A DNA stretch of 64,000 nt, taken from assembly GCA_958295805.1 (NCBI GenBank), contig OY282373.1, positions 2,705,499-2,769,498 of the forward strand. The letters run 5' to 3'. Under the pieces are notes generated by a model that searched no databases, had not been told where the DNA came from, and saw only the letters and a program-made list of their open reading frames with translations. The translations under genes and the position numbers were made by a program. Shown piece by piece: positions 36,327-55,353 of the stretch. Each line of letters begins with the position of its first letter. The first letter of the stretch is position 1. This DNA is from an uncultured Nitrospirales bacterium. GTDB taxonomy: Bacteria > Nitrospirota > Nitrospiria > Nitrospirales > UBA8639.

Positions 36327-38969
36327 TCAGACGACAAAATTCACCAATTTTTTTTCGACGTAAATCACTTTTCGCGGCGTCGCTCCTTTCAGCCATTCCA
36401 ATACTTTTCCATCGCTGCGCGCGAGATCGAGAACGGCCTCTTCGTTCGCATCGGTCGGCACGCGAATCTTGCTGCGCAACTTGCCGTTCACCTGAAGGGG
36501 GATCGTCATCTCCTCGTGGGTCACGAGATCGGGGTCAAACGTCGGCCACGCCTGATGCGCAAGACTCGGCGCGTTTCCCATCCCTTCCCACAATTCCTCG
36601 GCTACGTGGGGGGCAAACGGCGACAGCAATAAGACAAAAGCTTCGGCCGACGCGCGCGGCAGGGGACCGTCTTTGGTGATGTCCCGCACGAAGACCATCA
36701 ATTTCGCAATAGCGGTATTCAAACTCATTTCCTCAAGGTCCTGCGTCACGCCTTGAACGGTACGAGCGGTAAGTCGCGCTTGCTCCAGCGTTCCACTTCC
36801 TTCCACGATCGGCGCCGGCGACCCGTCTTGTCCGTGGTCACTCGTCAACAGACGATAGGCGCGCTGCAGAAAACGAGACACCCCCGGAATGGATTCCGTG
36901 GACCACGGCGCCCCTTTGTCCAACGGGCCCATGAACATTTCATACAGCCGCATGGCATCGGCGCCGTACTCGGCAATAATGTCATCCGGATTCACCACGT
37001 TCCCCCGGCTCTTGGACATCTTCTCCGTCACTTGTTCCAACGCCAGCCCCTCGATCGTCGGGTGAAGGGGCACGCCTTGTTCGGACCATTTCACGTCTTG
37101 GGAAGGCACCCATCGCGCCTTGAGTTCCTTGCCGGTTTTGTGGTGAACCGGGGAGTCGTGGTTCCACCGCACATCCGAAACGGAATACGATTGTGCCGAA
37201 CATGAAGGATCATCCGAAAGGTTGTTATCAAAGTACCGATAGCTGTGCCCGAGGATCATCCCGGGATTCAGCAATTTTTGAAACGGCTCAGGTGTATGCA
37301 CCAACCCGAGGTCATACAGCACCTTATGCCAGAACCGGGAATACAACAGGTGCAGCACCGCGTGCTCGGCTCCGCCAACGTACAAGTCAACCGGCATCCA
37401 GTGGCGTTCCGCCTCGTTGGACCACGGCTCCCGGGTATTGCGGGGATCGCAAAAGCGAAGGTAATACCAACAGCTTCCGGCCCACTGGGGCATGGTATTG
37501 GTATCACGCAAGGCCTTGCGTCCGGTCCGGGGATCGACGACTGCCATCCACTCGTGGGCACGAGCCAGCGGCGGTTCAAATTCCCCACTCGGTCGAAAGT
37601 CTTCCAACTCCGGGAGCAGCACCGGCAAATCCGATTCAGGCACGAGGGTCGTCGTGCCGTCTTCCAGGTGCATCACGGGAAAGGGCTCTCCCCAATACCG
37701 CTGCCGGCTGAAGAGCCAATCGCGCAATTTATACGTCACGGTCTTTTCGCCCCTGCCGCGTTGTTCCAGCCACTCGGCCATGCGCGTCTTCGCTTCGGGA
37801 GTGGGCAAGCCGTTCAAAAAGTCAGAATTCACGTTTGTGCCGTCACCGATAAACGCTTCGGTGGCACTATCGCCTCCGGATACGACTTCGACAATCGGCA
37901 AGTGAAACCGTTTCGCAAAGGCATAGTCCCGCGTATCATGAGCCGGGACCGCCATAATGGCCCCCGTCCCATAGGTGGCCATCACGTAATCCGCAATCCA
38001 GATCGGGAGGGGCGTGCCCGTGACCGGATGAACGGCATACGCCCCGGTGAAGACCCCGGTCTTCTCCCCCAGCTCGGCGATACGCGCCCGTTCACTCCGA
38101 CGGGACACGTTCTCCACGTAAGTCTCCACCGCCGAACGCTGCTCCGTCGTCGTGATCGCCGACACGATGGCATGCTCCGGAGCGAGGACCATATACGTCG
38201 CCCCGAAGAGGGTGTCGGGACGGGTGGTAAACACCTCAATCATGCGTGGCTCCTGCCCGGAGACCCCAAAGAAGATTTTGGCGCCTTCCGAACGGCCGAC
38301 CCATTCCCGCTGCATCCGCTTGATGGATTCGGGCCAATCCACGAGATCAAGGTCTTCAATCAACCGCTCGGCATAGGCCGTAATCCGAAGCATCCACTGC
38401 CGCATGGGCATCCGCACCACCGGATGCCCGCCTCGTTCACTCTTCCCATCAATGACTTCTTCATTGGCCAGCACCGTTCCCAACGCCGGGCACCAATTCA
38501 CCGGCACCTCGGCTAAATACGCCAACCCTTTTTCATAGAGTTTGCAAAAGATCCACTGCGTCCACCGCACGTATTGCGGATCGGTGGTATCGATTTCCCG
38601 TGACCAGTCGTAGTCCATCCCCAAGGCCTGGAATTGGCGTTTGAAGGTTTCCACGTTCCGTCTCGTGGTGTCTCGCGGATGGGTGCCGGTTTCAATCGCG
38701 TATTGTTCGGCCGGCAGGCCGAAGGCGTCCCACCCCATCGGGTGCAGGACGTTAAAGCCGCGCATCCGTTTATAGCGAGCCATGATATCCGTGGCGATGT
38801 AGCCCTTGGGGTGCCCCACGTGGAGTCCGGCCCCGGACGGATACGGGAACATGTCCAGCACGTAAAATTTGGGTTTGGTGGAGTCGACGTCGGAACGAAA
38901 CGTCTGATGCTCACGCCAGTAGGCTTGCCACTTTTTTTCGATAGCCTGGTGATCGTACAGTTTGGCCAT
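36327..38969 (-). CDS. leuS: Leucine--tRNA ligase
   Basis: Start set at ATG 38969 ([18 protein letters not shown]). HVGH-type ([10 protein letters not shown]) and KMSKS ([10 protein letters not shown]) class I signatures. The 998-aa track ORF is an upstream extension. Confidence 0.97.
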
Positions 38970-39160
38970 GGGCTGGAGACGCGCTGGTTGGGTCAGGCTC
39001 GCTTCGAAGAAACCGGATGAGCAGAAAATGTACCACAGGGATGGACGGCCGACAAGATAATCGTTGAGTGAACGCCCACGCTTGGCAGATTGCCGATTTT
39101 GTATGATGTTCCGCTCTTTGAGTCCAAACGAACGCCATTGCCACACCGTGCGACAGACTG

Positions 39161-39721
39161 ATGCCGCGCATCTTCGACAACATTGAACAGCATCTCCGAA
39201 CGGCCCTGGCCAAAACCATGGCGGTTTCCGACCGAGCATGGATGGACCGCGACGGCAAAAGTGTGACCGAAAGCCAGTTCGAGATTCTGCGGACAGCGGA
39301 ATGCCCGCCCGACGCGCCGGCACTGCCGCGTCACGAGACGCATCACAAACTGGTCAGCGAGGCGACAGAACACGTCGCCCGCGAAGAAAAACAAGTGGGA
39401 GGCCAACTCGGCCGCCCCTCCAGCGCCCGCTTCCGCGCGTATGAACGCCTCAAGCGTTACGCCGAAAGCGTCAAGGACACGCTGTTCGACACTGCGCCAC
39501 TCCATCGCGCCATTGACGACGTCTACCGCCACCCCCTGCGCCAAGCCGCGGTGGATACGTTAAACCGGCAACTGCGCAGCGGCGTCTCCGACGGGGCCCT
39601 TGCCGAGATGGTCATCGCACTCAGAGACGAAGACCGGCTCTGCATCGTACACGGAGAGGAGGAAGCCCAGGAACCGAAGATCATCTGTTCCATGGGCTTA
39701 ATTGGACGGGACGATAGTTGA
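39161..39721 (+). pseudogene. Short ORF, possibly a deletion remnant of a large PLD/helicase-type defence gene
   Basis: The N-terminal 26 aa ([26 protein letters not shown]) resemble, from memory, the start of PLD-domain helicase proteins. The similarity stops abruptly at SDRA. No Shine-Dalgarno sequence. The remainder has no recognisable catalytic motif. Could also be an intact small protein. Confidence 0.3.
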
Positions 39722-43772: not shown

Positions 43773-43917
43773 CGGTCTGCACGCGGGCGGAATAGTCCAC
43801 GTGGGTCCCGTAACAACCATCTTCCCACGATGCCCCGATGTGAGAGAAACACCATGCTTGACCCTTTTGCCTTACTGTATTAGTCTCCTTGGTAAGGAGA
43901 CCTGCCATGATCGTCAA
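43773..43917 (-). pseudogene. Carbamoyltransferase remnant upstream of the IS insertion
   Basis: ...GTHVDYSARVQT joins in frame to VDCETNP... once the IS and one copy of the 15-bp repeat are removed. The gene's N-terminal ~400 codons are absent. Confidence 0.6.
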
Positions 43918-44149
43918 AATTACGTCAAAGCGTCAGGTCACGTTTCCTGCGCGGGTATTGGACACGCTGGGGGTCGGCCCGGGCGACCAACTCGAACTGG
44001 AAGAGGGTTCTGACGGCTTCATTCTGCGGCCTCGGCGGATCGATCCGACTTTCATCCCGCCGCTACGGGACAAGATCGATCCTGACGCCGAACCGATTGA
44101 CATGGAGACGTTCCGAAGTCAGCCCTATGACCCTTCGCTACGGGATTGA
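43907..44149 (+). CDS. AbrB/MazE/SpoVT-type antitoxin (VapB-like)
   Basis: MIVKITSKRQVTFPARVLDTLGVGPGDQLELEE is the swapped-hairpin AbrB motif. RBS TAAGGAGA upstream. Confidence 0.8.
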   Translation: MIVKITSKRQVTFPARVLDTLGVGPGDQLELEEGSDGFILRPRRIDPTFIPPLRDKIDPDAEPIDMETFRSQPYDPSLRD

Positions 44150-44522
44150 CACATCCGTGCTTGTGCGGCTGCTGACCGGCAAACCTCCCGACGCGTTCTC
44201 TTATTGCGAAAAAGCACTGAGAACGTTGGCGGAAAGCGGGGCAGAAATTTTTGCATCGAATCAGGTCATTGGGGAAACCTACGTCACGGTCCAGCACCAT
44301 TATGGCGTGTCCAGAGCCGACGCCCGCGCCAGTCTGCTCTACGTGTTACGCAGTGGACTGGTTGCTCCCCTGAACGGGCACTCCGTTATCGCGGCACTTG
44401 AATCATCTGGCGGCCCGGGGCTGTTCGACCGCTTGATTGCCGACGAGTACTCCCGCGCCGGCATGGAAGTCCTCACGCTGGATCGCAAGATGACCACTCT
44501 GCCCGCAACAAGACGGCTTTAA
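44127..44522 (+). CDS. PIN-domain toxin (VapC-like)
   Basis: Start at MTLRYGIDTSVLVRLL overlaps the antitoxin end. Acidic PIN residues (IDTS, NQVIGET, DRLIA). Confidence 0.75.
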   Translation: MTLRYGIDTSVLVRLLTGKPPDAFSYCEKALRTLAESGAEIFASNQVIGETYVTVQHHYGVSRADARASLLYVLRSGLVAPLNGHSVIAALESSGGPGLFDRLIADEYSRAGMEVLTLDRKMTTLPATRRL

Positions 44523-44544: not shown

Positions 44545-47500
44545 ATGCCCGCCAAGTTCGACAAAAACGCCGTAAGAAGCCACCTGGAGCATTTCGCGCT
44601 CCAAACCCTGTTCATCAAGGAACTCGGCTGGGACCACGGCGGCGCGGACACCGACGCCGCCGTAGGCAGCCAGACGTTTGCGCTGCACGCTATTGCCCAC
44701 AAACGCGGCATGGTCGCCTATCAATGTGTGGCAACATCCGACGACGCTTTCCCGGACCATCCCACCCGCCAGAAGATCGAGCGAATTGTTGCCAAAACCG
44801 TCCGCGAACATCTCATCGTGTACGCCACCCACGACCTGAACTCACAGTGCTGGCAATGGGTCAAGCGCGAGCCGGGCAGCCCGGACCGGACTCGCACACA
44901 CGTCTATAGCCGGGGGCAGTCGGGCGAAGCCTTGATCCAAAAACTGGAGCATCTTGTCTTCACCTCGGACGAGGAAGAAAACGTGACTCTTGTTGATGTG
45001 ACGGGCCGGGTCCGGACGGCCTTCGTGGAGAAAGTCACCAAGGGGTTCTACGACCGGTTCAAAAAGGAGCACTCTGCTTTTCTGACCTTCATTGATGGCA
45101 TCACGAACGTAGCTGACCGCGAATGGTACGCCTCACTGATGCTCAATCGCATGATGTTCATCTACTTCATCCAGAAGCGCGGCTTCCTTGACAACGACCC
45201 AAACTACCTGCGCAACCGCCTGGAACGGGTGCGACGGCAACAGGGGAACGGCAACTTCCACAGCTTCTACCGGCTGTTCCTGCTACGGCTGTTTCACGAG
45301 GGACTTGGCCAACCTGCGGCCGACCGCACCCCGGAATTGGCCACGTTGCTCGGCCGCGTGCCGTACCTCAACGGCGGCCTGTTCGACGTCCACGACCTGG
45401 AGCGCGACAACCTGAACATCCGCATCCCCGACGAAGCCTTCAAGCAAATCTTCGCGTTCTTCGACGCCTATCAGTGGCACCTTGACGACCGGCCGCTCCG
45501 CGATGACAACGAGATCAACCCCGACGTGCTGGGCTACATCTTCGAGAAATACATCAACCAGAAGCAGATGGGCGCCTACTACACCAAGGAGGACATCACC
45601 GGCTACATCAGCCGCAACACCGTCCTGCCGTTCCTGTTCGACCGAACAAAACAGGACTGTTCGATTGCCTTCAAGCCCGGCGGCGGAGTCTGGCGCCTGT
45701 TGGCGGATGACCCGGACCGGTATGTCTACGAAGCCGTCCGTCACGGCGTCACCTATGACGTTCACCAAAAGAAAGCTCTAGCCGAAAAGCGGGAACTGCC
45801 GCCCGAGATCGCCGCGGGGCTGAACGACGTGGCGCAACGCGGCGGTTGGAATCAGCCGGCCCCGCCCGAGTATGCCCTGCCGACCGAGACGTGGCGCGAG
45901 CACGTGGCCCGACGGCAACGCTATGAGGAAATCCGCGCCAAACTCGCCGCGGGCGAGGTCACGTCGATCAACGACCTCATCACCTACAATTTGGACATCG
46001 AACAATTCGCCTTGGATGTGATCGCGGGCAGCGAAGGCCTGGAACTGGTCCGCGCCTTCTGGAAGGCGATGCAGAGCGTCTCCATCCTTGACCCGACGTG
46101 CGGGTCCGGCGCGTTCCTGTTCGCCGCGCTCAACGTCCTGGAGCCGCCTGCCTGGACGCCATGCGTGGCTTCCTCAACGACCTGGAACACTCGAAACGCA
46201 AGTACCGCCCGGAAAAACTCAGCGACTTCCGCAACGTGCTGCACCAAGTCGAAGAACACGCCAGCGAACGCTACTTCGTCCTCAAGTCCATCATCATCAA
46301 CAACCTGTACGGCGTGGACATCATGGAAGAGGCGGTAGAAATCTGCAAACTCCGCCTGTTCCTCAAGCTCGTGGCGCAACTGGACACCTACGACCAGATC
46401 GAACCGCTGCCCGACGTCGACTTCAACGTCCGCGCCGGCAACACGCTGGTCGGCTTCACGTCACTGGAGGAAATACGGAAAGCCTTCACGATGACGGCTG
46501 GCGGTCAGCGCAGAATGCTGTACGCGGAAGACGAAAAAAAGCTGAGACGCATTGAAGAAGAGGCCGAACTCGCCGACCGTGCCTTTCATCAGTTCCGCGC
46601 CATGCAGACCAAGCGCGGCATGAACGCCGGCGCGTTCGCCAGCGCAAAGTCTGATCTACGGAAGCAACTTGATAATTTGCGGAACGAATTGGACGAATAT
46701 TTGTCCGGCGAATACGGCGCTAAAACCGACGACGAAACGGCTTACCAACAATGGCGCAACAGCCACCAGCCGTTTCACTGGTTCGTCGAGTTCTACGGGA
46801 TCATGCACAACGGCGGCTTTGACGTAGTCATCGGGAATCCGCCGTATGTGGAACTCTCTACGACAAACCGACAATATCGACCGAGGAATTTTCTTACTGA
46901 GACGTGCGGAAATCTTTATGCTCTTTGCACCGAGCGGGCATTTACATTGCTACACCAACGGGCTCGGTTCAGTTTTATTGTTCCCCTCAGCGTTCAGACA
47001 ACAGCTAGGATGAACAACCTGCAACAATTGTTTATTCAAGAGAAGCGGCACATCTATCTCAGCACGTTCGATGTGTATCCAAGCAAGCTGTTCGAAGGGG
47101 CGAAACAAAGAATCAGCCTGCTCATATCAACCGAACGCTTCGATAAATCTCGATTCTGGACTACATCCTACAATCGTTGGCGGCCAGAGGAAAGAAACAC
47201 ATTATTTTCAACCCTTCGATATTACCGATCATACTTGGACGAAAATTGTTGCGTGATTCCCAAACTTGGAAACAGGATTGTAGAACAAATTCTCCACAAA
47301 CTGAGCAAGTATGGTTCAGTGTCATACAAGCAAAACCCTGTGGCTCCATCATTCTACGTGCATCGAATTCCATATAACTACGTTAAGGCGTTTGATTTTG
47401 TCCCTTACTTTTGGAGTGAAATTGATGGTCGGAAAAAATCTGAGGACTACAAACCATATCAATTAGACCTGCAAGAGGTGACTGGTTCTTTGCTGGCCGT

Positions 47501-47870
47501 ACTCAACTCAAACCTTTTCTTTTGGTGGTGGTATTCGCTGTTTGAAGGATACCATTGTGGACGTCACGAGATTTTCTCGTTTCCAATCGGCATTCGGCAG
47601 ATGAAGGATGAGATTTGTGAAAATCTTGCTGCTTTCGCAGTGCAACTCATGAAAGATTACAAACAACATAGTGGACGAAAGACAGCCAACTACAAAGCAA
47701 AAGGCAAAGTCGAATACGACGAGTATTATCCCAGGAAATCTAAACCCATCATTGACGAAATCGACCGCGTGCTAGCCAAACACTACGGCTTCACGGACGA
47801 AGAGTTGGACTTCATCATCAACTACGACATCAAGTATCGGATGGGGCGGGAAGACTTGGATCGGGATTGA
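44545..47870 (+). pseudogene. Large gamma-class N6-adenine DNA methyltransferase (Eco57I/type IIG-like), copy 1, frameshifted
   Basis: Two overlapping track ORFs (44545..46338 and 46098..47870) together align end-to-end with the intact paralog at 52027-55353. Motif I is ILDPTCGSGAFL and motif IV is VIGNPPYV. The frame breaks at 46146/46147, where 10 nt present in copy 2 (atgtacgtcg) are missing. Confidence 0.85.
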
Positions 47871-47885
47871 CGGAAACTGACAGCC

Positions 47886-48374
47886 ATGGTCAAGAGAACG
47901 GTCTATATCGAAACATCTGTCGTATCCTACCTGACGGCTCGGCCTACGAGCGATTTGCTGGCGGCGGATTGGCAGAAAATCACGGTTGACTGGTGGGAGA
48001 CACGGAGAAATCAATTTGACCTCTATACGTCCGACGTCACGGTTGAAGAGGCCCGTCGGGGTAATCCTGATGCTGGGGCACGCCGTCTCGAAGCGTTGTC
48101 CGGCATTCCGATACTGCCGATCACACAGGCTGCTGTAGGGCTATCGAAGCAACTTTTTCAGGGCGGGGCGCTTCCAGCCAAAGCCGAAAACGATGCCCTG
48201 TACGTTGCCGTATCCGCGGTGCATGGGGTCGATTACTTATTGACTTGAAACTGCCGGCATCTCGATAATGCAGAGCGCAAGCCCATTGTACGGAAGGTTT
48301 GTGCGTTGCACGGGTATATCTGCCCTGAGATCTGTACCCCCCAAGAACTCATGGAAGAACTTGAATGTGTCTGA
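47886..48374 (+). pseudogene. PIN-like toxin-family gene interrupted by an in-frame TGA
   Basis: MVKRTVYIETSVVSYLTARPTSDLL...DALYVAVSAVHGVDYLLT*NCRHLDNAERKPIVRKVCALHGYICPEICTPQELMEEL. The stop at 48246-48248 sits where this family has a conserved Trp (LLTWNC), and the frame stays open to 48374. Confidence 0.65.
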
Positions 48375-48585
48375 CGAAATCATCGAGGAGTTGTGGCGAA
48401 TCAAAGACGAAATAGCCCGCGAACATGGATACGACGTCGGATCGCTCGCCGCCTATCTCCAAAGCAAGGAGCAGACGGAGGGACGGCAAGTGGTGGATTT
48501 GCAATCCCTGAAGAAGGCTGCCAGACAAGACGAATCGCCGCCACCCTCATGTTCCGGAGCTTTCCGGTCAAAGGGAAGTTCATGA
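48361..48585 (+). CDS. Small hypothetical protein (antitoxin-like partner of the PIN-like gene)
   Basis: Starts at TTG 48361 or GTG 48367 (MSDEIIEELWRIKDEIAREHGYD...). Overlaps the end of the PIN-like frame and overlaps the next gene by ATGA. Confidence 0.4.
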   Translation: MNVSDEIIEELWRIKDEIAREHGYDVGSLAAYLQSKEQTEGRQVVDLQSLKKAARQDESPPPSCSGAFRSKGSS

Positions 48586-48782
48586 AGCTGCGTGTTGCTC
48601 AAGAAGCTGACGCGCTCTACCTCCGCCTCGACGAGTCCGCCATCATCAACTCCGAAGAAGTTTCGCCGGGCGTCGTACTCGACTACAACGATGCAAACGA
48701 AGTGGTCGGCATAGAACTGCTCCACCTCTCGAAACGCTCCTCCACGCTCAACCTCTCTGCCCTGCAATTTGAAACGACGTAA
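48582..48782 (+). CDS. DUF2283-family small protein
   Basis: MKLRVAQEADALYLRLDESAIINSEEVSPGVVLDYNDANEVVGIELLHLSKR matches the DUF2283 pattern (ADALYIRL...GVILDYD...VGIEIL). Confidence 0.75.
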   Translation: MKLRVAQEADALYLRLDESAIINSEEVSPGVVLDYNDANEVVGIELLHLSKRSSTLNLSALQFETT

Positions 48783-48866: not shown

Positions 48867-49022
48867 CTCGCACCGCCGGTGCGAGAAATTGGGGATTTGT
48901 CAAAAGTGCAACCATTGGTTGCACTCATTCAATGGGGTCTCCATCCTGTCGTTGCTCTCAAGCTGATGCGGCAGTTTTTGTGGACTATCGGGAAAAGGAA
49001 AAACTCCAACCACTGGTTGGAG
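48867..49022 (+). promoter_or_regulatory. Three 19-nt perfect palindromes (9-bp arms, 1-nt centre) upstream of the DprA-like gene
   Basis: A is ctcgcaccgccggtgcgag (48867-48885), B is gtgcaaccattggttgcac (48906-48924), and C is ctccaaccactggttggag (49004-49022). Each is preceded by an A-run (caaaaa, caaaa, gaaaaa). C contains the GGAG that lies 7 nt before the TTG start at 49030. Confidence 0.55.
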
Positions 49023-49029
49023 TAATGAG

Positions 49030-49683
49030 TTGAGTCAAGCATTGGGAATGGATCCTGAGCATCAAACGCTGTTAAGGCCCGGCGCTTCCGACTATCCGGC
49101 GGTGTTGCGGCGTTGCTCCGAGGATGGGCGTCCGCTTGCCGTCATGGTACGGGGCAACCTCGGCGTGCTTGATGTACCGCTGCTCGGGTTCTTTTGCTCC
49201 GTGCGCTCCCCCGGTGACGTGATTCTCAAAACTTACGACTTGGCCAAGACGCTGCGCCATGCCGACGTGACGATCATCGGCGGGTTCCAGTCGCCGATGG
49301 AAAAAGAGTGCCTGGACGTTCTGTTGCGGGGCACGGCGTCCGTCGTCGTCTGTCCGGCCCGGGGATTCAATCACATGCGAACCCCGAAAAACTGGAAGCC
49401 GCCCATAGCCGAAGGCCGCCTGTTGCTCCTCTCGTTCTTCGACGGCAACGTCCGCCGTCCCACCACGGCCCTGGCCGCCAAGCGCAACGCCTACGTCGCC
49501 ACCCTGGCCAACCGCCTCCTCATCGCCCACGCTGAACAAGACAGCAAAACCGAAACGTTGTGCAGGGACGCCCTGACCCAAGGCAAGCAGGTCTTCACCC
49601 TGGACTCCCCAGACAACGCCTCCCTGATCGAACTTGGTGCCCTCCCCGTCGCAGCGGACGACCTCACCGCACTCTTCGCCTAG
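49030..49683 (+). CDS. DprA/Smf-like (SLOG/Rossmann-fold) protein, divergent, no C-terminal DNA-binding extension
   Basis: 217 aa. The order of DprA blocks is preserved: DYPAVL, LLGFFCSVRSPG, IIGGFQSPMEKECLDVLLRG in place of SGxAxGID..AH, VVVCPARGF, RLLLLSFF, KRNAYVATLANRLLIAHAEQDSKTE, GKQVFTL. Start is TTG 49030 or ATG 49048. Confidence 0.65.
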   Translation: MSQALGMDPEHQTLLRPGASDYPAVLRRCSEDGRPLAVMVRGNLGVLDVPLLGFFCSVRSPGDVILKTYDLAKTLRHADVTIIGGFQSPMEKECLDVLLRGTASVVVCPARGFNHMRTPKNWKPPIAEGRLLLLSFFDGNVRRPTTALAAKRNAYVATLANRLLIAHAEQDSKTETLCRDALTQGKQVFTLDSPDNASLIELGALPVAADDLTALFA

Positions 49684-49740: not shown

Positions 49741-49845
49741 TCCGCTCTCTGTAGCTGCGCCATCTCATGGCGCCGAGGGGACCATGCCGGATGCGAAGCG
49801 GCGTTGGCTCTCCGCTCTTCTGTAGCGGCGCCATCTCATGGCGCC
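49741..49845. repeat. Two copies of the REP-like element tccgctct(c/t)ctgtagcNgcgccatctcatggcgcc
   Basis: Copies at 49741-49774 and 49811-49845. Each contains the hairpin ggcgccat-ctc-atggcgcc (8-bp stem). A related copy lies at 15227-15255. Confidence 0.8.
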
Positions 49846-50026
49846 CGTCGTGGTATTCCAAACACTCTCACCGACCCATCTCGGGCTAGGCAGGGAGGCG
49901 AGATAAGACATGTCCCTGCCTCCGAGCAGGGATCACGCAACGACGAACCACGGGACGGCAATCAAGTCCATTCAATAAGTCATCGTGCCAACGGGCACAA
50001 AAGAACGCGGTTCGTTCCTTGCCTTA

Positions 50027-51720: not shown

Positions 51721-51926
51721 TTAGTGATAGTCGATGATTTGCACGTCATAGGCCTACCCCTTACTCCATTGAAACCAGAACGTTGCCAAATGTCTGAATC
51801 ACGTCCGCATGTTATCGGAACCCGATAATAATGACAAAATCGGCAATGGCTTGCGTGAACGGATGCACGTTCGCGTTGACTGCCAGGCGTGGTCCATCTG
51901 CCGAATGAATCCGTTGTCTTCATCAT
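51721..51926 (-). pseudogene. Decayed higB (RelE/ParE-fold killer) gene
   Basis: One frame reads WFQWSKG*AYDVQIIDYH*, the HigB C-terminal motif interrupted by TAG. The upstream part is only readable in another frame. The stop lies 14 nt before the higA start, as in higBA operons. Confidence 0.45.
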
Positions 51927-52026
51927 TTCACTTTTTCAGAGAATTTGTATTATTCTTGAGACAAAGGATTGTAGATTGAGGCTTTGTGGAGGACAACAAG
52001 TCGATGGTCAATCCGAGGAATTCCCG

Positions 52027-55000
52027 ATGCGGACACTCAACGGAACCAACGTCACGCAACATCTGAAGAACTTCGATCTCCGCACGCTGTTCATTGAAGA
52101 ACTGGGCTGGGACCAGGGCGGAACCGATACCGACGCCACCGTGGGCAACCAAACGTTCACGTTGCAGGCCATTGCACACGCACGCGGCATGGTGGCCTAT
52201 CAATGCGTGGCGGACGTTGACGATGTTTTCCCCGATCATCCGACCCGCCGGAAGATCGAGAGAGCCGTTGCCAAAACCGTCCGCGAACACGTCATCGTCT
52301 ACCCTTCACGCGACAGGAACGCCCTGTACTGGCAATGGGTGAAGCGCGAGCAGGGGAGGCCTGATCGATCTCACGCGTCCATTTATCACCTGGACCACCC
52401 GGACGACGCGATGATCCAGAAGTTGAGGCATCTTGTCTGTACGCCGGACGAGGAAGATAACAACCCGAGCCTCGCCGATGGATCGGACCGAATGCTCGCG
52501 GCCTTCGACGTTGAGAAAGTCATCAGGCAGTTCTACGACCGTTTGAAAAAACAGCGCGACGGGTTTCAGAGATTCATCAAAGGCATCCCGACCCTTGCAG
52601 ACAGGGAATGGTACGCCTCGCTGATGCTGAACCGGATCATGTTTCTCTACTTCATCCAGAAGCGGGGCTTCCTTGACGGCGACCCGGACTATCTGCGCAA
52701 CCGCCTTGAACGCATGCAATGGACACGGGGGAAGGACCGCCTCCAACGGTTCTACCGGCTGTTTCTCCTGAAACTGTTCCACGAGGGGTTGAGTCGGCCA
52801 GAGGCCGAGCGAGCACCGGAATCAGCGGAATTGCTCGGCACGGTCCCCTATCTCAACGGCGGCCTGTTCGACGTACACGACCTGGAGCGCGACAACCCGG
52901 ACATCCGCATCCCGGACGAAGCCTTCGTGAAAATTTTCGCCTTCTTCGACGCCTATCAGTGGCATCTTGACGACCGGCCGCTCCGCAACGACAACGAGAT
53001 CAATCTCGACGTGCTGGGCTCCATCTTTGAGAAGTACGTCAACCAGAAGCAGATGGGCGCCTACTACACCAAGGAGGACGTCACCGGTTACATCAGCCGC
53101 AACACCGTCCTGCCGTTCCTGTTCGACCGTGTGAAACAGGATTGTTCGAGTGCGTTCAAGCCCGGCGGCGGAGTGTGGCGGCTGCTGGCGGACGACCCTG
53201 ACCGGTACGTCTACGAAGCCGTCCGTCACGGTGTCACCTATGACGTTCACAAACAGGAAGCCCTGGCCGACAGACGCGAATTGCCGCCCGAGGTCGCCGC
53301 GGGGCTGCACGACGTGGCGCAACGCGGCGGCTGGAACGAAGCGGCCCCGTCCGAGTACGCCCTGCCGACCGAGACGTGGCGCGAGCACGTGGTCCGCCGG
53401 CAACGTTATGAGGAAATCCGCGCCAAACTCGCCGCGGGCGAGGTGACGTCGATCAACGACCTCATCACCTACAATTTGGACGTCGAACAATTCGCCCAGG
53501 ACGTGATCGCGGGCAGCGAAGGCCCGGAACTGGTCCGCGCCTTCTGGAAGGCACTCACCACCGTCTCCATCCTCGACCCGACCTGCGGGTCCGGCGCGTT
53601 TCTGTTGGCCGCGATGAACGTGCTGGAGCCGATGTACGTCGCCTGCCTGGACGCCATGCGGGAACACCTTGATGACCTGACGCGCTCGACGCACACGCAC
53701 GGCCCGGAGCATCTGAACGATTTTCGCACGATACTTGACCGCGTGGCGGCACATGCCGGCGAACGCGACTTCATCCTCAAGTCCATCATTGTCAACAACG
53801 TGTACGGCGTGGACATCATGGACGAGGCCGTGGAACTCTGCAAACTGCGCCTGCTCCTGAAACTGTTCGCGGAGACGAGGGCCGACCGGATCGAACCACT
53901 GCCCGACGTGGCCCTCAACGTCCGTGCGGGCAACACGCTCGTGGGTTTCACGTCGATCAAGGAAATACAGGAAGCGTTCGTCATGACCCAAGGCGACCAG
54001 CGGAGAATGCTCTACCCCGAAGACGAGACCGAACTGACGCGCATTAAAACGCGCGCCGAAGCCGCCGACCTGGCCTTTCGCCATTTCCGCGACGTGCAGG
54101 CCGAGCACGGCGTGGGTGCAGGCGCGTTCGCCCACGCGAAGTCGGATCTGCGGGAACGACTCGACGACCTGCGCAACGAATTCAACGAATATTTGGCCGG
54201 CAACTACGGCGTCGAGACCGCTGACGAAGGGGCCTACCGGCAATGGCGTCACAGCCACCGGCCTTTCCATTGGTTCATCGAATTCTACGGCGTCATGAAC
54301 GGCGGCGGGTTCGACGTGCTCATCGGGAATCCGCCTTACCTGAAATACAGTCAGGTGAAGAATCATGACACCGTCAAGGGCTACGCCACCCGATCCTGCG
54401 GCAATCTGTTCGCATTGATGATGGAACGAAGCACGCGCCTCTCTCATTCGGAAAGCTTCTTGAGCATGATGGTCCCGCTGAGTGGACACAGCACAAAGAA
54501 AATGCTCCCGTTGATGAACACGTTTTATAAGTCGTTCACGTCGTGCCACCTGTTCAACATCAGCGCCGACGCCCATCCAGGCGTTTTGCTTCCCGGAGCC
54601 AGATTCAGGTTGGCGATCTTTATCACGTCAAATCGTGGAAAGGGAATCTTCACGACTGGGTATTCACGATGGTACGCAGCGGAGGGGGGCCATCTGTTCA
54701 GCCTCTTGCAGTACACGCCCATCGGGACCATCCACTATCCAACCGCCATTCCAAAGGTCTCAAGTCCTCTGCATCTACAGATTTTGCAGAAACTGTACGC
54801 GTATCAAGAAAGCCTGCACGATTCGCTCAGTTCCAGACCGTTGTCTGATCGGGTGCTGCTCTATCATTCATCACCGGTTAATTGGATTCGAGCGCATACG
54901 ACGACGCCATATTTTTACAACCAGCGAGACGGTGAAAAAACGTCCGTCAAGTTGAAACCTCTCTACCAGAACAACGGGACCGAGAGTTTACAGGGAATCC

Positions 55001-55353
55001 TCTGTAGCACGGTGTTCTTTATCTGGTGGCTGTCTCATTCGGACTGCTGTGACTTGAACCGACAGGAGATCGAGACGTTTCCCAAGTGTCGAAGTGCGAA
55101 ATTCGTCTCGCTGTCTCACCGGTTAGAAGATGACATGCGGGTTCATGCAAAACGACATCGTTATCCCGACAAGACGACGGGAAGAATTGAATACGACGAA
55201 TTTGTTATGAAAATGTCCAAACCGCTCATAGACGACGTTGATGCCGTCCTGGCCGAGCACTACGGTTTCACGGACGAGGAATTGGATTTCATCATCAACT
55301 ACGATATCAAGTACCGCATGGGCTTGAACAATCTGAGCAGTGACGGGGAATGA
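52027..55353 (+). CDS. Large gamma-class N6-adenine DNA methyltransferase (Eco57I/type IIG-like), copy 2, intact
   Basis: 1,108 aa from ATG 52027 (GAGGAA upstream). Motif I is ILDPTCGSGAFL, motif IV is LIGNPPYL, and PYLNGGLFD and GAYYTKEDVTGYI helper motifs are present. Paralog of 44545-47870 except for residues after NPPY. Confidence 0.9.
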   Translation: MRTLNGTNVTQHLKNFDLRTLFIEELGWDQGGTDTDATVGNQTFTLQAIAHARGMVAYQCVADVDDVFPDHPTRRKIERAVAKTVREHVIVYPSRDRNALYWQWVKREQGRPDRSHASIYHLDHPDDAMIQKLRHLVCTPDEEDNNPSLADGSDRMLAAFDVEKVIRQFYDRLKKQRDGFQRFIKGIPTLADREWYASLMLNRIMFLYFIQKRGFLDGDPDYLRNRLERMQWTRGKDRLQRFYRLFLLKLFHEGLSRPEAERAPESAELLGTVPYLNGGLFDVHDLERDNPDIRIPDEAFVKIFAFFDAYQWHLDDRPLRNDNEINLDVLGSIFEKYVNQKQMGAYYTKEDVTGYISRNTVLPFLFDRVKQDCSSAFKPGGGVWRLLADDPDRYVYEAVRHGVTYDVHKQEALADRRELPPEVAAGLHDVAQRGGWNEAAPSEYALPTETWREHVVRRQRYEEIRAKLAAGEVTSINDLITYNLDVEQFAQDVIAGSEGPELVRAFWKALTTVSILDPTCGSGAFLLAAMNVLEPMYVACLDAMREHLDDLTRSTHTHGPEHLNDFRTILDRVAAHAGERDFILKSIIVNNVYGVDIMDEAVELCKLRLLLKLFAETRADRIEPLPDVALNVRAGNTLVGFTSIKEIQEAFVMTQGDQRRMLYPEDETELTRIKTRAEAADLAFRHFRDVQAEHGVGAGAFAHAKSDLRERLDDLRNEFNEYLAGNYGVETADEGAYRQWRHSHRPFHWFIEFYGVMNGGGFDVLIGNPPYLKYSQVKNHDTVKGYATRSCGNLFALMMERSTRLSHSESFLSMMVPLSGHSTKKMLPLMNTFYKSFTSCHLFNISADAHPGVLLPGARFRLAIFITSNRGKGIFTTGYSRWYAAEGGHLFSLLQYTPIGTIHYPTAIPKVSSPLHLQILQKLYAYQESLHDSLSSRPLSDRVLLYHSSPVNWIRAHTTTPYFYNQRDGEKTSVKLKPLYQNNGTESLQGILCSTVFFIWWLSHSDCCDLNRQEIETFPKCRSAKFVSLSHRLEDDMRVHAKRHRYPDKTTGRIEYDEFVMKMSKPLIDDVDAVLAEHYGFTDEELDFIINYDIKYRMGLNNLSSDGE

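What the first reader, a model, noticed from the sequence alone, without database searches (positions are those of the whole stretch)
49030..49683. Stand-alone DprA-like (SLOG-fold) protein with the canonical SGxAxGID motif replaced
- The 217-aa protein keeps the order and spacing of DprA Rossmann-fold blocks.
- It has GGFQSPMEKE where DprA has SG.A.GID..AH.
- It lacks the SAM-like N-terminal domain and the C-terminal DML1/winged-helix domain of competence DprA.
- Truncated SLOG-family proteins have been proposed as nucleotide or ssDNA sensors in conflict systems.
- Its location inside a defence-type island rather than a competence context suggests a non-canonical role, such as a sensor, anti-restriction factor or recombination mediator.
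Basis: partly seen in the sequence, partly recalled or inferred. Interest (0 to 1): 0.6.

Follow-up and report, generated by a model that had tools for sequence, protein, structure and literature searches.

The report
DprA-like third gene of restriction operon
This small DprA-like protein is not a lone gene: it is the conserved last gene of a widespread, unnamed and untested three-gene restriction-modification-like defence operon (nuclease-helicase, DNA methylase, DprA-like protein), and here it is the only intact survivor of a broken copy.

Summary
The ORF (49030-49683, 217 aa) is real. A high-confidence model (pLDDT 93.6) has the DprA Rossmann/SLOG fold, with no SAM-like or winged-helix domains. 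The SGxAxGID block reads GGFQSPME, but its Gly and acidic residue are kept.

"Stand-alone" is wrong. The only conserved neighbours in 72 loci from many phyla are a type IIG-like N6-adenine methyltransferase (49 loci) and an HKD(PLD)-SNF2 nuclease-helicase (35 loci), always upstream on the same strand. In 401 Nitrospirota genomes, 12 of 13 assessable close helicase orthologs have this gene 3-12 kb downstream. The three proteins co-evolve (Mantel r 0.82-0.88). Ten natural fusions join the domain to an NPPY-less copy of that methyltransferase.

The window's copy is decayed. The helicase has an in-frame deletion of about 935 codons and methylase copy 1 has a 10-nt deletion. The DprA-like gene is intact (dN/dS 0.19-0.37).

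Most likely it is a DNA-binding partner or regulator of the methylase (inferred). Rivals are a ShosA/PsyrA-like damage-mitigating role and nucleotide sensing. I found no paper describing the trio. The scan has met the same trio on other DNA several times. Interest is moderate.

The parts
49030..49683 (+). DprA-like (SLOG fold) protein, 217 aa from the TTG start, or 211 aa from the ATG at 49048. The ORF is intact. The hallmark motif GGFQSPMEKE lies at residues 84-93.
   Evidence: - ORF.
- Pfam DprA and PADLOC PsyrA matches.
- Structural model and Foldseek.
- Family alignments.
- dN/dS 0.19-0.37.
39161..39721 (+). Remnant of the operon's HKD(PLD)-SNF2 nuclease-helicase. It is an in-frame internal deletion: residues 1-26 match the helicase N-terminus and residues 26-182 match its last ~157 residues. 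About 935 codons, holding the nuclease and motor domains, are missing.
   Evidence: - Genome search with the helicase.
- BLASTP of the C-terminal part (76% identity).
- Matches to both the N- and C-termini of full-length helicases.
43889..44522 (+). MazE-type antitoxin (43889-44149) and PIN toxin (44097-44522). This is a cargo pair lodged between helicase and methylase, as in other loci of the family.
   Evidence: - Pfam.
- Same position in L008-L013 and many L0xx loci.
44545..47870 (+). Methyltransferase copy 1 (type IIG-like, Eco57I/MmeI-type N6-adenine MTase). This is the operon's own methylase, a pseudogene through a 10-nt deletion just after SAM motif I (about 46145), which splits it into ORFs 44545-46338 and 46098-47870.
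   Evidence: - ORFs and Pfam.
- DNA alignment against copy 2.
47886..48782 (+). Cargo slot between methylase and the DprA-like gene. It holds a PIN-domain gene (47886-48248, apparently truncated), an unassigned ORF (48268-48585) and DUF2283 (48582-48782).
   Evidence: - Pfam.
- The same slot in other loci holds MTaX1-HNH, a 331-aa protein, PIN, DUF2283, an AbiJ-like gene or Gabija.
48868..49022 (.). Three perfect 19-nt palindromes upstream of the gene. The last one (49004-49022) overlaps the Shine-Dalgarno sequence of the TTG start. They are found in the close Nitrospirales relatives, not across the family.
   Evidence: - Sequence.
- Palindrome scan of 73 upstream regions.
51889..55353 (+). 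Methyltransferase copy 2, an intact paralog of 1154 aa with NPPY present. It is the only intact potential partner of the DprA-like protein in this genome.
   Evidence: - ORF and Pfam.
- PADLOC REase_MTase_IIG, E = 2.6e-293.
- Conserved at the same place in L023 and L024.

Best explanation
The protein is the third, terminal component of a widespread three-gene restriction-modification-like defence operon. I found no name for it and no paper describing it.

The three genes (domain assignments are shown; the roles in brackets are inferred):
- Gene 1 is an HKD(PLD) nuclease fused to an SNF2-type motor (the presumed restriction effector).
- Gene 2 is a large type IIG/PglX-like N6-adenine methyltransferase with its own target-recognition region (presumed to mark self DNA).
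- Gene 3 is this single-domain DprA-fold protein.

Inferred mechanism:
- The DprA-like protein binds nucleic acid. It keeps counterparts of DprA's ssDNA-contacting arginines.
- It acts on or with the methyltransferase, as a loading or stimulating subunit or as a switch between methylation and restriction.
- This would limit self-damage by the nuclease-helicase.

Shown here:
- The fold.
- The conserved gene order.
- Co-inheritance of the three genes.
- Natural fusion of the domain to an inactive copy of the methyltransferase.

Inferred only:
- DNA binding.
- A physical contact with the methylase.
- The direction of the effect.

In this window the operon is dead. The helicase-nuclease is gutted by an in-frame deletion and methylase copy 1 is frameshifted. 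The DprA-like gene is therefore an intact relic. At most it could still work with the intact methylase paralog 2.2 kb downstream.
For: Conserved gene order:
- Contexts of three homologs show the order HKD-helicase, MTase, optional cargo, DprA-like gene.
- Among 61 loci with at least 9 kb of upstream flank, 37 have both partners upstream on the same strand and 46 have at least one.
- Unbiased clustering of 1208 ORFs finds only the MTase (49 of 72 loci) and the helicase (35 of 72) as shared neighbours. The next cluster reaches 15 loci.
- Members at only 37-43% identity still start 62-130 bp after the MTase.

Count starting from the helicase:
- In a sample of 401 Nitrospirota genomes there are 16 full-length close helicase orthologs.
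- 12 have the DprA-like gene 3-12 kb downstream on the same strand.
- 3 cannot be assessed because of contig ends.
- 1 complete genome lacks it.

Co-inheritance:
- Pairwise distances of the three proteins correlate, with Mantel r 0.82-0.88 and p = 0.0005.

Link to the methylase:
- Ten proteins of 690-770 aa fuse the MTase N-terminal domain and an MTase-like domain to this DprA-like domain. Motif I is kept and NPPY is lost in all ten.

Fold and residues:
- The model matches DprA and ShosA.
- HpDprA R143 aligns with the invariant R152. R170 aligns with R179. R52 lies next to the conserved R59 (with residue roles taken from PMC12961424).

Precedent:
- H. pylori DprA binds N6-adenine MTases, stimulates methylation and shields DNA from restriction enzymes (PMC3597690).

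Decay of the local operon:
- Shown: - Purifying selection acts on the gene, with dN/dS 0.19-0.37.
Against: - No biochemical or genetic data exist for any member of the family.
- The link to the MTase rests on gene order and on fusions to a catalytically dead MTase-like domain. Those fusions sit in housekeeping contexts and may have a different function.
- Copies without any MTase or helicase nearby are common: about 15 of 61 loci and about 16 Nitrospirota genomes. So the gene may have value on its own, or it simply survives because it is small.
- One complete genome has the helicase without the DprA-like gene. Several loci have an intact helicase with a broken DprA-like gene (L094, G163). It is therefore not strictly required.
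- The protein is near neutral (pI 7.7), which is not typical of a strong DNA binder.
- Linked genes share history by default, so the Mantel result shows one unit of inheritance, not an interaction.
Confidence: 0.6

Rival explanations
1. ShosA/PsyrA-like 'antitoxin' or damage-mitigation role. The DprA-like protein would not act on the methylase. It would bind ssDNA and recruit RecA to repair breaks that the system's own HKD nuclease-helicase makes in host DNA, or it would restrain that helicase. Phage ssDNA would titrate it away and unleash restriction or abortive infection.
For: - The best defence-library match is PsyrA (E = 2.6e-16), with a weaker one to ShosA.
- The family profile is closer to the host's PsyrA-type paralog (95%, E = 1.8e-8) than to its canonical DprA (86%, E = 5e-6).
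- ShosA (8ZVA) is among the top structural matches.
- ShosA neutralises its toxin without binding it, through ssDNA binding and RecA (PMC12961424).
- PsyrA partners with a helicase, as here.
Against: - No RecQ-like or PRTase toxin gene is a conserved neighbour.
- The natural fusions are to the MTase-like domain, not to the helicase.
- Loci exist with an intact helicase and a broken or absent DprA-like gene (L094, G163, G289). That is unexpected for a strict antitoxin.
- The family lacks the SAM-like domain, which the ShosA paper reports as needed for ShosA stability.
- The RecA-interaction surface was not tested.
Confidence: 0.2
2. Nucleotide-centred SLOG role. The domain would bind or hydrolyse a nucleotide or a modified nucleotide (LOG-like), or sense a nucleotide signal, rather than bind DNA. 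It would gate the system that way.
For: - The fold belongs to the SLOG superfamily, and LOG, YgdH, Moco carrier protein and YpsA appear as weaker structural matches.
- The most diverged block, GGFQSPME, sits at the strand-to-helix junction (residues 85-91 in the model). From general knowledge of Rossmann-type folds, not tested here, that is where phosphates are usually bound.
- The invariant E91 could be catalytic.
Against: - DprA-branch structures score about seven orders of magnitude better than nucleotide-binding SLOG members.
- Counterparts of the DprA ssDNA-binding arginines are kept.
- No nucleotide-generating enzyme (cyclase, TIR, SIR2) is a conserved neighbour.
Confidence: 0.1
3. An independent gene in this genome. 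The DprA-like protein would work with the adjacent RmuC as a local recombination module, or as an anti-restriction factor, unrelated to the methylases.
For: - RmuC lies 396 bp downstream.
- The order DprA-like, RmuC, MTase copy 2 is shared with two related Nitrospirales genomes (L023, L024).
- The DprA-like gene is intact while its operon partners are broken.
Against: - RmuC is next to the gene only in those three close relatives among 72 loci.
- In L024 the DprA-like ortholog has a premature stop while RmuC and MTase copy 2 stay intact.
- There are no homologs in the phage or plasmid collections.
Confidence: 0.05

Closest known systems
Competence protein DprA/Smf (PF02481; structures 3UQZ, 4LJK, 3MAJ)
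   Same: - Same Rossmann/SLOG fold (TM 0.70-0.77).
- The Ser of the 'GSR' motif, the 'RN' motif and the 'xEA' block are conserved.
- Counterparts of two to three ssDNA-binding arginines are kept.
- H. pylori DprA interacts with and stimulates N6-adenine methyltransferases (PMC3597690).
   Different: - Only 16-26% identity.
- No SAM-like N-terminal domain and no C-terminal winged-helix domain.
- SGxAxGID has become GGFQSPME.
- It fails the NCBIfam DprA equivalog cut-off (42 against 191 bits).
- It is encoded in a restriction-type operon, not in a housekeeping or competence context. The host has its own canonical DprA.
ShosA (ShosTA) and PsyrA (PsyrTA/RqlHI), the DprA-like antitoxins of defence toxin-antitoxin systems
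   Same: - A DprA-fold protein used in anti-phage defence.
- The best PADLOC match is PsyrA.
- ShosA is a top structural hit.
- PsyrA pairs with an SF2 helicase.
   Different: - The partner genes differ: an HKD-SNF2 helicase plus a methyltransferase, instead of a RecQ-like/PRTase toxin.
- It is a single domain of about 210 aa, against 300-480 aa with extra domains.
- The hallmark motif has diverged.
- The host genome carries a separate PsyrTA-type pair elsewhere.
MANTIS (Gao_RL, type-2 BREX-related systems: MtsA-D)
   Same: - An HKD-nuclease/SF2-helicase effector together with a large N6-adenine methyltransferase that needs accessory factors.
- Methylation-based discrimination of self from non-self.
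   Different: - No DUF499 AAA+ ATPase (MtsA) or DUF3780 (MtsB) is conserved in these loci.
- The accessory position is filled by a DprA-fold protein.
- The mechanism of the trio is untested.
Class 1 DISARM (DrmD SNF2, DrmMI methylase, DrmA/B/C)
   Same: - The methylase hits DrmMI models (E = 1.9e-25) and the helicase hits DrmD (E = 6.8e-8).
- A PLD nuclease activity is part of the system.
   Different: - DrmA and DrmB (DUF1998) are absent.
- The PLD domain is fused to the SNF2 motor.
- DISARM has no DprA-like component.

Membership tests
DprA/Smf (PF02481; TIGR00732 equivalog) | DprA-type Rossmann (SLOG) fold and a Pfam domain match above the gathering score | tested here: met
   - Pfam: 44.3 bits against a cut-off of 29.6.
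- Foldseek top hits are DprA structures, TM 0.70-0.77, E about 1e-11.
DprA/Smf (PF02481; TIGR00732 equivalog) | Equivalog-level similarity to bona fide DprA | tested here: not met
   - TIGR00732: 42.2 bits against a cut-off of 191.15.
- NF008007: 24.6 bits against a cut-off of 495.
DprA/Smf (PF02481; TIGR00732 equivalog) | Conserved SGxAxGID motif | tested here: not met
   The family has [GS]GF[QH]SP[MI]E. Only the Gly and the acidic residue are retained.
DprA/Smf (PF02481; TIGR00732 equivalog) | Accessory SAM-like N-terminal domain and/or C-terminal winged-helix (DML1-like) domain | tested here: not met
   The 217-aa chain is entirely the Rossmann domain in the model. The host's canonical DprA is 370 aa and has both extensions.
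DprA/Smf (PF02481; TIGR00732 equivalog) | ssDNA binding and loading of RecA | not testable with these tools
   Only residue conservation could be checked. R152 is invariant (HpDprA R143), R179 matches R170, and R59 lies next to R52.
PsyrA (antitoxin of PsyrTA/RqlHI) | Match to the PsyrA profile | tested here: met
   PADLOC PDLC03927, E = 2.6e-16, but only positions 100-295 of 398.
PsyrA (antitoxin of PsyrTA/RqlHI) | Adjacent RecQ-like helicase toxin (PsyrT) | tested here: not met
   - No RecQ-like gene lies next to it in the window.
- None is among the conserved neighbour clusters of the 72 loci.
- The genome's PsyrTA-type pair is at another place.
ShosA (antitoxin of ShosTA) | Adjacent PRTase toxin (ShosT) and a SAM-like domain | tested here: not met
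   - Only a weak ShosA match, E = 1.2e-4, over 50 residues.
- No PRTase neighbour.
- No SAM-like domain.
Unnamed trio: HKD-SNF2 helicase / type IIG-like MTase / DprA-like protein | The gene lies downstream of, and on the same strand as, the MTase and the HKD-helicase | tested here: met
   - Family level: 37 of 61 loci have both partners, and 12 of 13 assessable helicase-first cases are linked.
- Window: a helicase remnant at 39161-39721 and the broken MTase at 44545-47870 lie upstream on the same strand.
Unnamed trio: HKD-SNF2 helicase / type IIG-like MTase / DprA-like protein | Family hallmark motif GF[QH]SP[MI]E and a single-domain protein of about 200-240 aa | tested here: met
   GGFQSPMEKE at residues 84-93; 217 aa.
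MANTIS / Gao_RL / type-2 BREX-related | DUF499 AAA+ ATPase (MtsA) and DUF3780 (MtsB) alongside the methylase and the HKD-helicase | tested here: not met
   - No further large gene is conserved in the 72 loci.
- The Pfam lists of called genes in L001-L013 show neither domain.
Class 1 DISARM | DrmA helicase and DrmB (DUF1998) together with DrmD, DrmMI and DrmC | tested here: not met
   Only partial DrmD and DrmMI similarity. No DrmA- or DrmB-like conserved neighbour.

The most novel reading that the evidence does not exclude
The DprA-fold protein would be an obligate co-factor that couples DNA-structure sensing to the methyltransferase. The signals sensed would be ssDNA, gaps or replication forks. 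The protein would decide whether the trio methylates (self, replicating DNA) or hands the site to the HKD-SNF2 nuclease (invader). This would be an ATP-independent functional counterpart of MtsA/MtsB in MANTIS. The dead-methylase/DprA fusions would then be domesticated DNA-structure readers. A second open possibility is that the gene marks and helps maintain the cargo slot where other defence genes (Gabija, AbiJ-like, HNH, toxin-antitoxin pairs) accumulate.
Probability: 0.3. Interest if true: 0.7.

Novelty: new variant of a known kind. Interest (0 to 1): 0.45.

Why it matters
- Methylation-based defence systems beyond classical R-M (BREX, DISARM, MANTIS) all raise one open question: how the methylase and the nuclease are controlled so that self DNA is spared.
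- This trio is a minimal version with only one small accessory protein, and that protein has a well-studied fold. It would be a tractable model for that question.
- It would also extend the emerging theme of DprA-fold proteins as regulators in phage defence (ShosA, PsyrA) to restriction-type systems.
- For annotation, these genes should not be called "DNA-processing protein DprA" or taken as evidence of natural competence.
- For this particular genome the gene is a relic of a decayed operon, so its local biological weight is small.

Tried and rejected
- **Conserved upstream regulatory element.** The three 19-nt palindromes are present only in the close Nitrospirales relatives, plus one positional analogue in an Entotheonella contig. 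They are not family-wide.
- **DprA-like/RmuC module.** RmuC is a neighbour only in three related genomes.
- **Plasmid or phage carriage and anti-restriction.** There is no match in PLSDB, apart from one ordinary Smf at E = 7e-3, and none in the phage collection.
- **Alternative partners in orphan loci.** None was found. These loci hold remnants of the same island or housekeeping flanks.
- **Context of the MTase-like/DprA fusions.** Two loci show unrelated housekeeping neighbours, so they give no further functional clue.
- **Literature.** I found no description of a DprA-like gene in an HKD-helicase/MTase operon. The original SLOG paper (Burroughs et al., NAR 2015) is not held, so an earlier mention there cannot be excluded.
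- **Folding a natural fusion to inspect the interface.** Not run, because the tool returns no coordinates or PAE from which an interface could be judged.

Full report
**1. The observation**

The ORF at 49030-49683 (+) exists and encodes 217 aa from a TTG start. A GGAG sequence lies 7 nt upstream of that start. Homologs, and the gene call held in the protein database, begin at the ATG at 49048, which gives 211 aa.

Profile matches:
- Pfam DNA_processg_A (PF02481) matches above its gathering score: 44.3 against 29.6 bits, residues 13-194.
- The NCBIfam DprA equivalogs are missed by a wide margin: 42 against 191 bits.
- In PADLOC the best match is PsyrA (E = 2.6e-16), with a weak ShosA hit. Both are DprA-like antitoxins of defence toxin-antitoxin systems.

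Structure:
- An AlphaFold2 model built on a 32-sequence family alignment is confident, with mean pLDDT 93.6 and pTM 0.90.
- Foldseek against the PDB returns DprA from S. pneumoniae, R. palustris and H. pylori, and ShosA (8ZVA), at E about 1e-11 to 1e-10 and TM 0.70-0.77.
- Other SLOG members (Moco carrier protein, YgdH/LOG, YpsA) follow at E of 1e-4 or weaker.
- The whole chain is the Rossmann domain.

The fold claim and the claim of missing flanking domains therefore hold.

**2. The motif**

I aligned the protein with the host's own canonical DprA (370 aa, elsewhere in the genome) and with its PsyrA-type paralog.
- The family reads IGGFQSPMEKE where DprA reads VSGMARGIDAAAH.
- This is a divergence rather than a loss. 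G85 is invariant, and the invariant E91 lies opposite the Asp of GID.
- [GS]GF[QH]SP[MI]E is kept in members down to 37% identity.
- The Ser of 'GSR' (S57), the 'RN' pair (R152, N153) and the 'xEA' block are retained.

The ShosA paper (PMC12961424) lists R52, R143 and R170 as the ssDNA-binding arginines of H. pylori DprA. Using the HMMER alignment to that protein:
- R143 corresponds to the invariant R152.
- R170 corresponds to R179, which is K or R across the family.
- R52 lies one position from the conserved R59.

Nucleic-acid binding is thus plausible but unproven. The protein is near neutral, with pI 7.7.

**3. It is not stand-alone**

More than 1300 homologs exist, many 60-70% identical and spread across phyla.

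Neighbourhood evidence:
- The contexts of three homologs showed one recurring order: HKD(PLD)+SNF2 helicase (about 1120 aa), type IIG-like MmeI/Eco57I methyltransferase (about 1150 aa), variable small genes, then the DprA-like gene.
- I fetched 72 loci from named genomes: Latescibacterota, Binatia, Vicinamibacterales, Nitrospirales, Entotheonella, Dehalococcoidia, Gammaproteobacteria, Spirochaetia and others.
- Of 61 loci with at least 9 kb of upstream flank, 37 carry both partners upstream on the same strand and 46 carry at least one.
- An unbiased clustering of all 1208 neighbouring ORFs found only those two genes to be widely shared: 49 and 35 of 72 loci, always upstream and co-oriented. 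No other cluster exceeds 15 loci.
- In the most divergent members (37-43% identity) the gene starts 62-130 bp after the methylase stop. The core is therefore three genes.
- The gap between methylase and DprA-like gene is a cargo slot. In different loci it holds MTaX1-HNH, a 331-aa protein, PIN, DUF2283, an AbiJ-like gene or a Gabija pair.

These loci were found with the DprA-like protein as bait. So I repeated the count from the other side in 401 Nitrospirota genomes:
- There are 16 full-length close orthologs of the helicase.
- 12 have the DprA-like gene 3-12 kb downstream on the same strand.
- 3 end at contig borders and cannot be judged.
- 1 complete genome lacks the gene.

Pairwise distances of the three proteins are strongly correlated (Mantel r 0.82-0.88, p = 0.0005, 21 complete loci). 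This shows inheritance as one unit, although linkage alone would produce the same result.

**4. Link to the methylase**

The exhaustive representative search revealed proteins of 690-770 aa with this domain at the C-terminus.
- In all eight scanned with PADLOC (and in a ninth and tenth by alignment), the N-terminal part is homologous to this operon's methylase, matching model PDLC03628. It comprises the N-terminal domain plus the catalytic domain.
- All ten keep a recognisable SAM motif I (xDPxCGxGxRL).
- All ten have lost the NPPY catalytic motif.

This Rosetta-stone-type fusion points to the methylase, not the helicase, as the protein the DprA-like domain works with. The two fusion loci I could inspect lie among housekeeping genes, so the fusions look like domesticated derivatives. 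Their weight as evidence is limited.

**5. State of the locus in this window**

The island between leuS and uvrC holds a decayed copy of the operon.
- **Helicase.** The 186-aa ORF at 39161-39721 is the helicase with an in-frame internal deletion. Residues 1-26 match the N-terminus and residues 26-182 match the last ~157 residues. The nuclease and motor domains are gone.
- **Insertion.** About 4 kb, including an IS transposase, follows the remnant.
- **Cargo.** Next come the MazE/PIN pair that other loci also carry at this position.
- **Methylase copy 1.** It is broken by a 10-nt deletion just after motif I.
- **Cargo slot.** It holds a PIN gene that looks truncated and DUF2283.
- **DprA-like gene.** It is intact.
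- **Downstream.** RmuC, a HigA-type gene and an intact methylase paralog follow.

MTaX1 is absent from the genome.

A related Nitrospirales genome (L023) has the fuller version: MazE, PIN, MTase, MTaX1-HNH, DUF2283, the 331-aa protein, PIN, the DprA-like gene, RmuC and MTase copy 2. In another relative (L024) the upstream methylase is a stub and the DprA-like ortholog has a premature stop.

The window's gene shows purifying selection. dN/dS is 0.19 against distant homologs and 0.37 against the closest one. It is therefore either a recent relic or still useful, perhaps with methylase copy 2.

**6. Mechanism**

- Shown: the DprA fold, the conserved position as third gene, co-inheritance, and fusion to an inactive methylase-like scaffold.
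- Inferred: the protein binds DNA and acts on or with the methylase, by stimulating or loading it or by gating the choice between methylation and restriction. That would limit self-damage.
- Precedent: H. pylori DprA physically binds N6-adenine methyltransferases, stimulates methylation and shields DNA from restriction enzymes (PMC3597690).
- Comparison: MANTIS, a related helicase-nuclease/methylase system, needs two accessory proteins to load its methylase (preprint 10.64898/2026.09.23.753747). Those proteins (DUF499, DUF3780) are not conserved here.

The main rival is a ShosA/PsyrA-like role: ssDNA- and RecA-dependent mitigation of damage, or restraint of the helicase.
- For it: the PsyrA profile match, and a slightly closer profile relation to the host's PsyrA-type paralog than to its canonical DprA.
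- Against it: the fusion partner is the methylase, and loci exist with an intact helicase but a broken or missing DprA-like gene.

A nucleotide-sensing or hydrolysing SLOG role and a local DprA-RmuC module are less likely.

The anti-restriction idea is disfavoured because phage and plasmid collections hold no homolog.

**7. Novelty**

I found no paper that describes a DprA-like component of an HKD-helicase/methylase operon. The founding SLOG paper could not be read.

Earlier notes of this scan describe the same trio, independently, on other genomes as widespread and unnamed. My tests agree with them.

The system is a new variant of methylation-based restriction. The protein is a new, diverged branch of defence-associated DprA-like proteins. 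The particular copy in this window is a remnant.

Noticed in passing
own genome G000:C1:298915-302523 (locus L015): A PsyrTA-type pair lies elsewhere in the genome. It consists of a 482-aa DprA-like protein (canonical SGAAQGID motif, C-terminal HTH-like tail) next to a RecQ-like helicase whose C-terminus carries a PRTase-like motif.
   Followed up: partly
window 39161-39721: The helicase 'tombstone' is an in-frame internal deletion that keeps the first 26 and the last ~157 codons of an ~1120-aa HKD-SNF2 protein. The remaining ORF is still open.
   Followed up: yes
window 48868-49022: Three perfect 19-nt palindromes (9-bp arms, 1-nt centre) lie upstream of the DprA-like gene, and the last covers its Shine-Dalgarno sequence. 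They are shared with the close Nitrospirales relatives L023 and L024. An Entotheonella contig (L084) has a different palindrome at the same offset.
   Followed up: partly
window 49745-49850: Just downstream of the DprA-like stop there are two copies of a hairpin-forming motif (GCGCCAT CTC ATGGCGC) about 70 nt apart. They could be terminators or REP-like elements.
   Followed up: no
window 47886-48585: The PIN-domain ORF (120 aa) ends early compared with homologs. The following 105-aa ORF has no family match. This may be a frameshifted toxin plus a small antitoxin-like gene.
   Followed up: no
loci L026, L029 (about 6.1-9.7 kb and 7.4-9.3 kb): A Gabija-like pair (OLD-type ATPase/TOPRIM plus UvrD-like helicase) sits as cargo between the methylase position and the DprA-like gene in Latescibacterota genomes. 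An AbiJ-like gene (AbiJ_NTD4 + DUF7014) fills the same slot in nine loci.
   Followed up: partly
loci L095 (8136-10415) and L096 (3869-5989): Proteins that fuse an NPPY-less methylase-like domain to the DprA-like domain lie among housekeeping genes. One sits directly upstream of S-adenosylmethionine synthetase.
   Followed up: partly
window 36327-39323; L051 4825-8100; L002 11959-14946: In three different lineages the island abuts an aminoacyl-tRNA synthetase gene (leuS, valS, glyQS). This may be chance or a preferred insertion neighbourhood.
   Followed up: no
own genome G000:C1:108861-111419 and 1928613-1930973: Two further HKD/SNF2-type helicase ORFs of about 1120-1170 aa (28-38% identical to the operon's helicase) lie elsewhere in the genome. 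They are presumably parts of other restriction-like systems.
   Followed up: no
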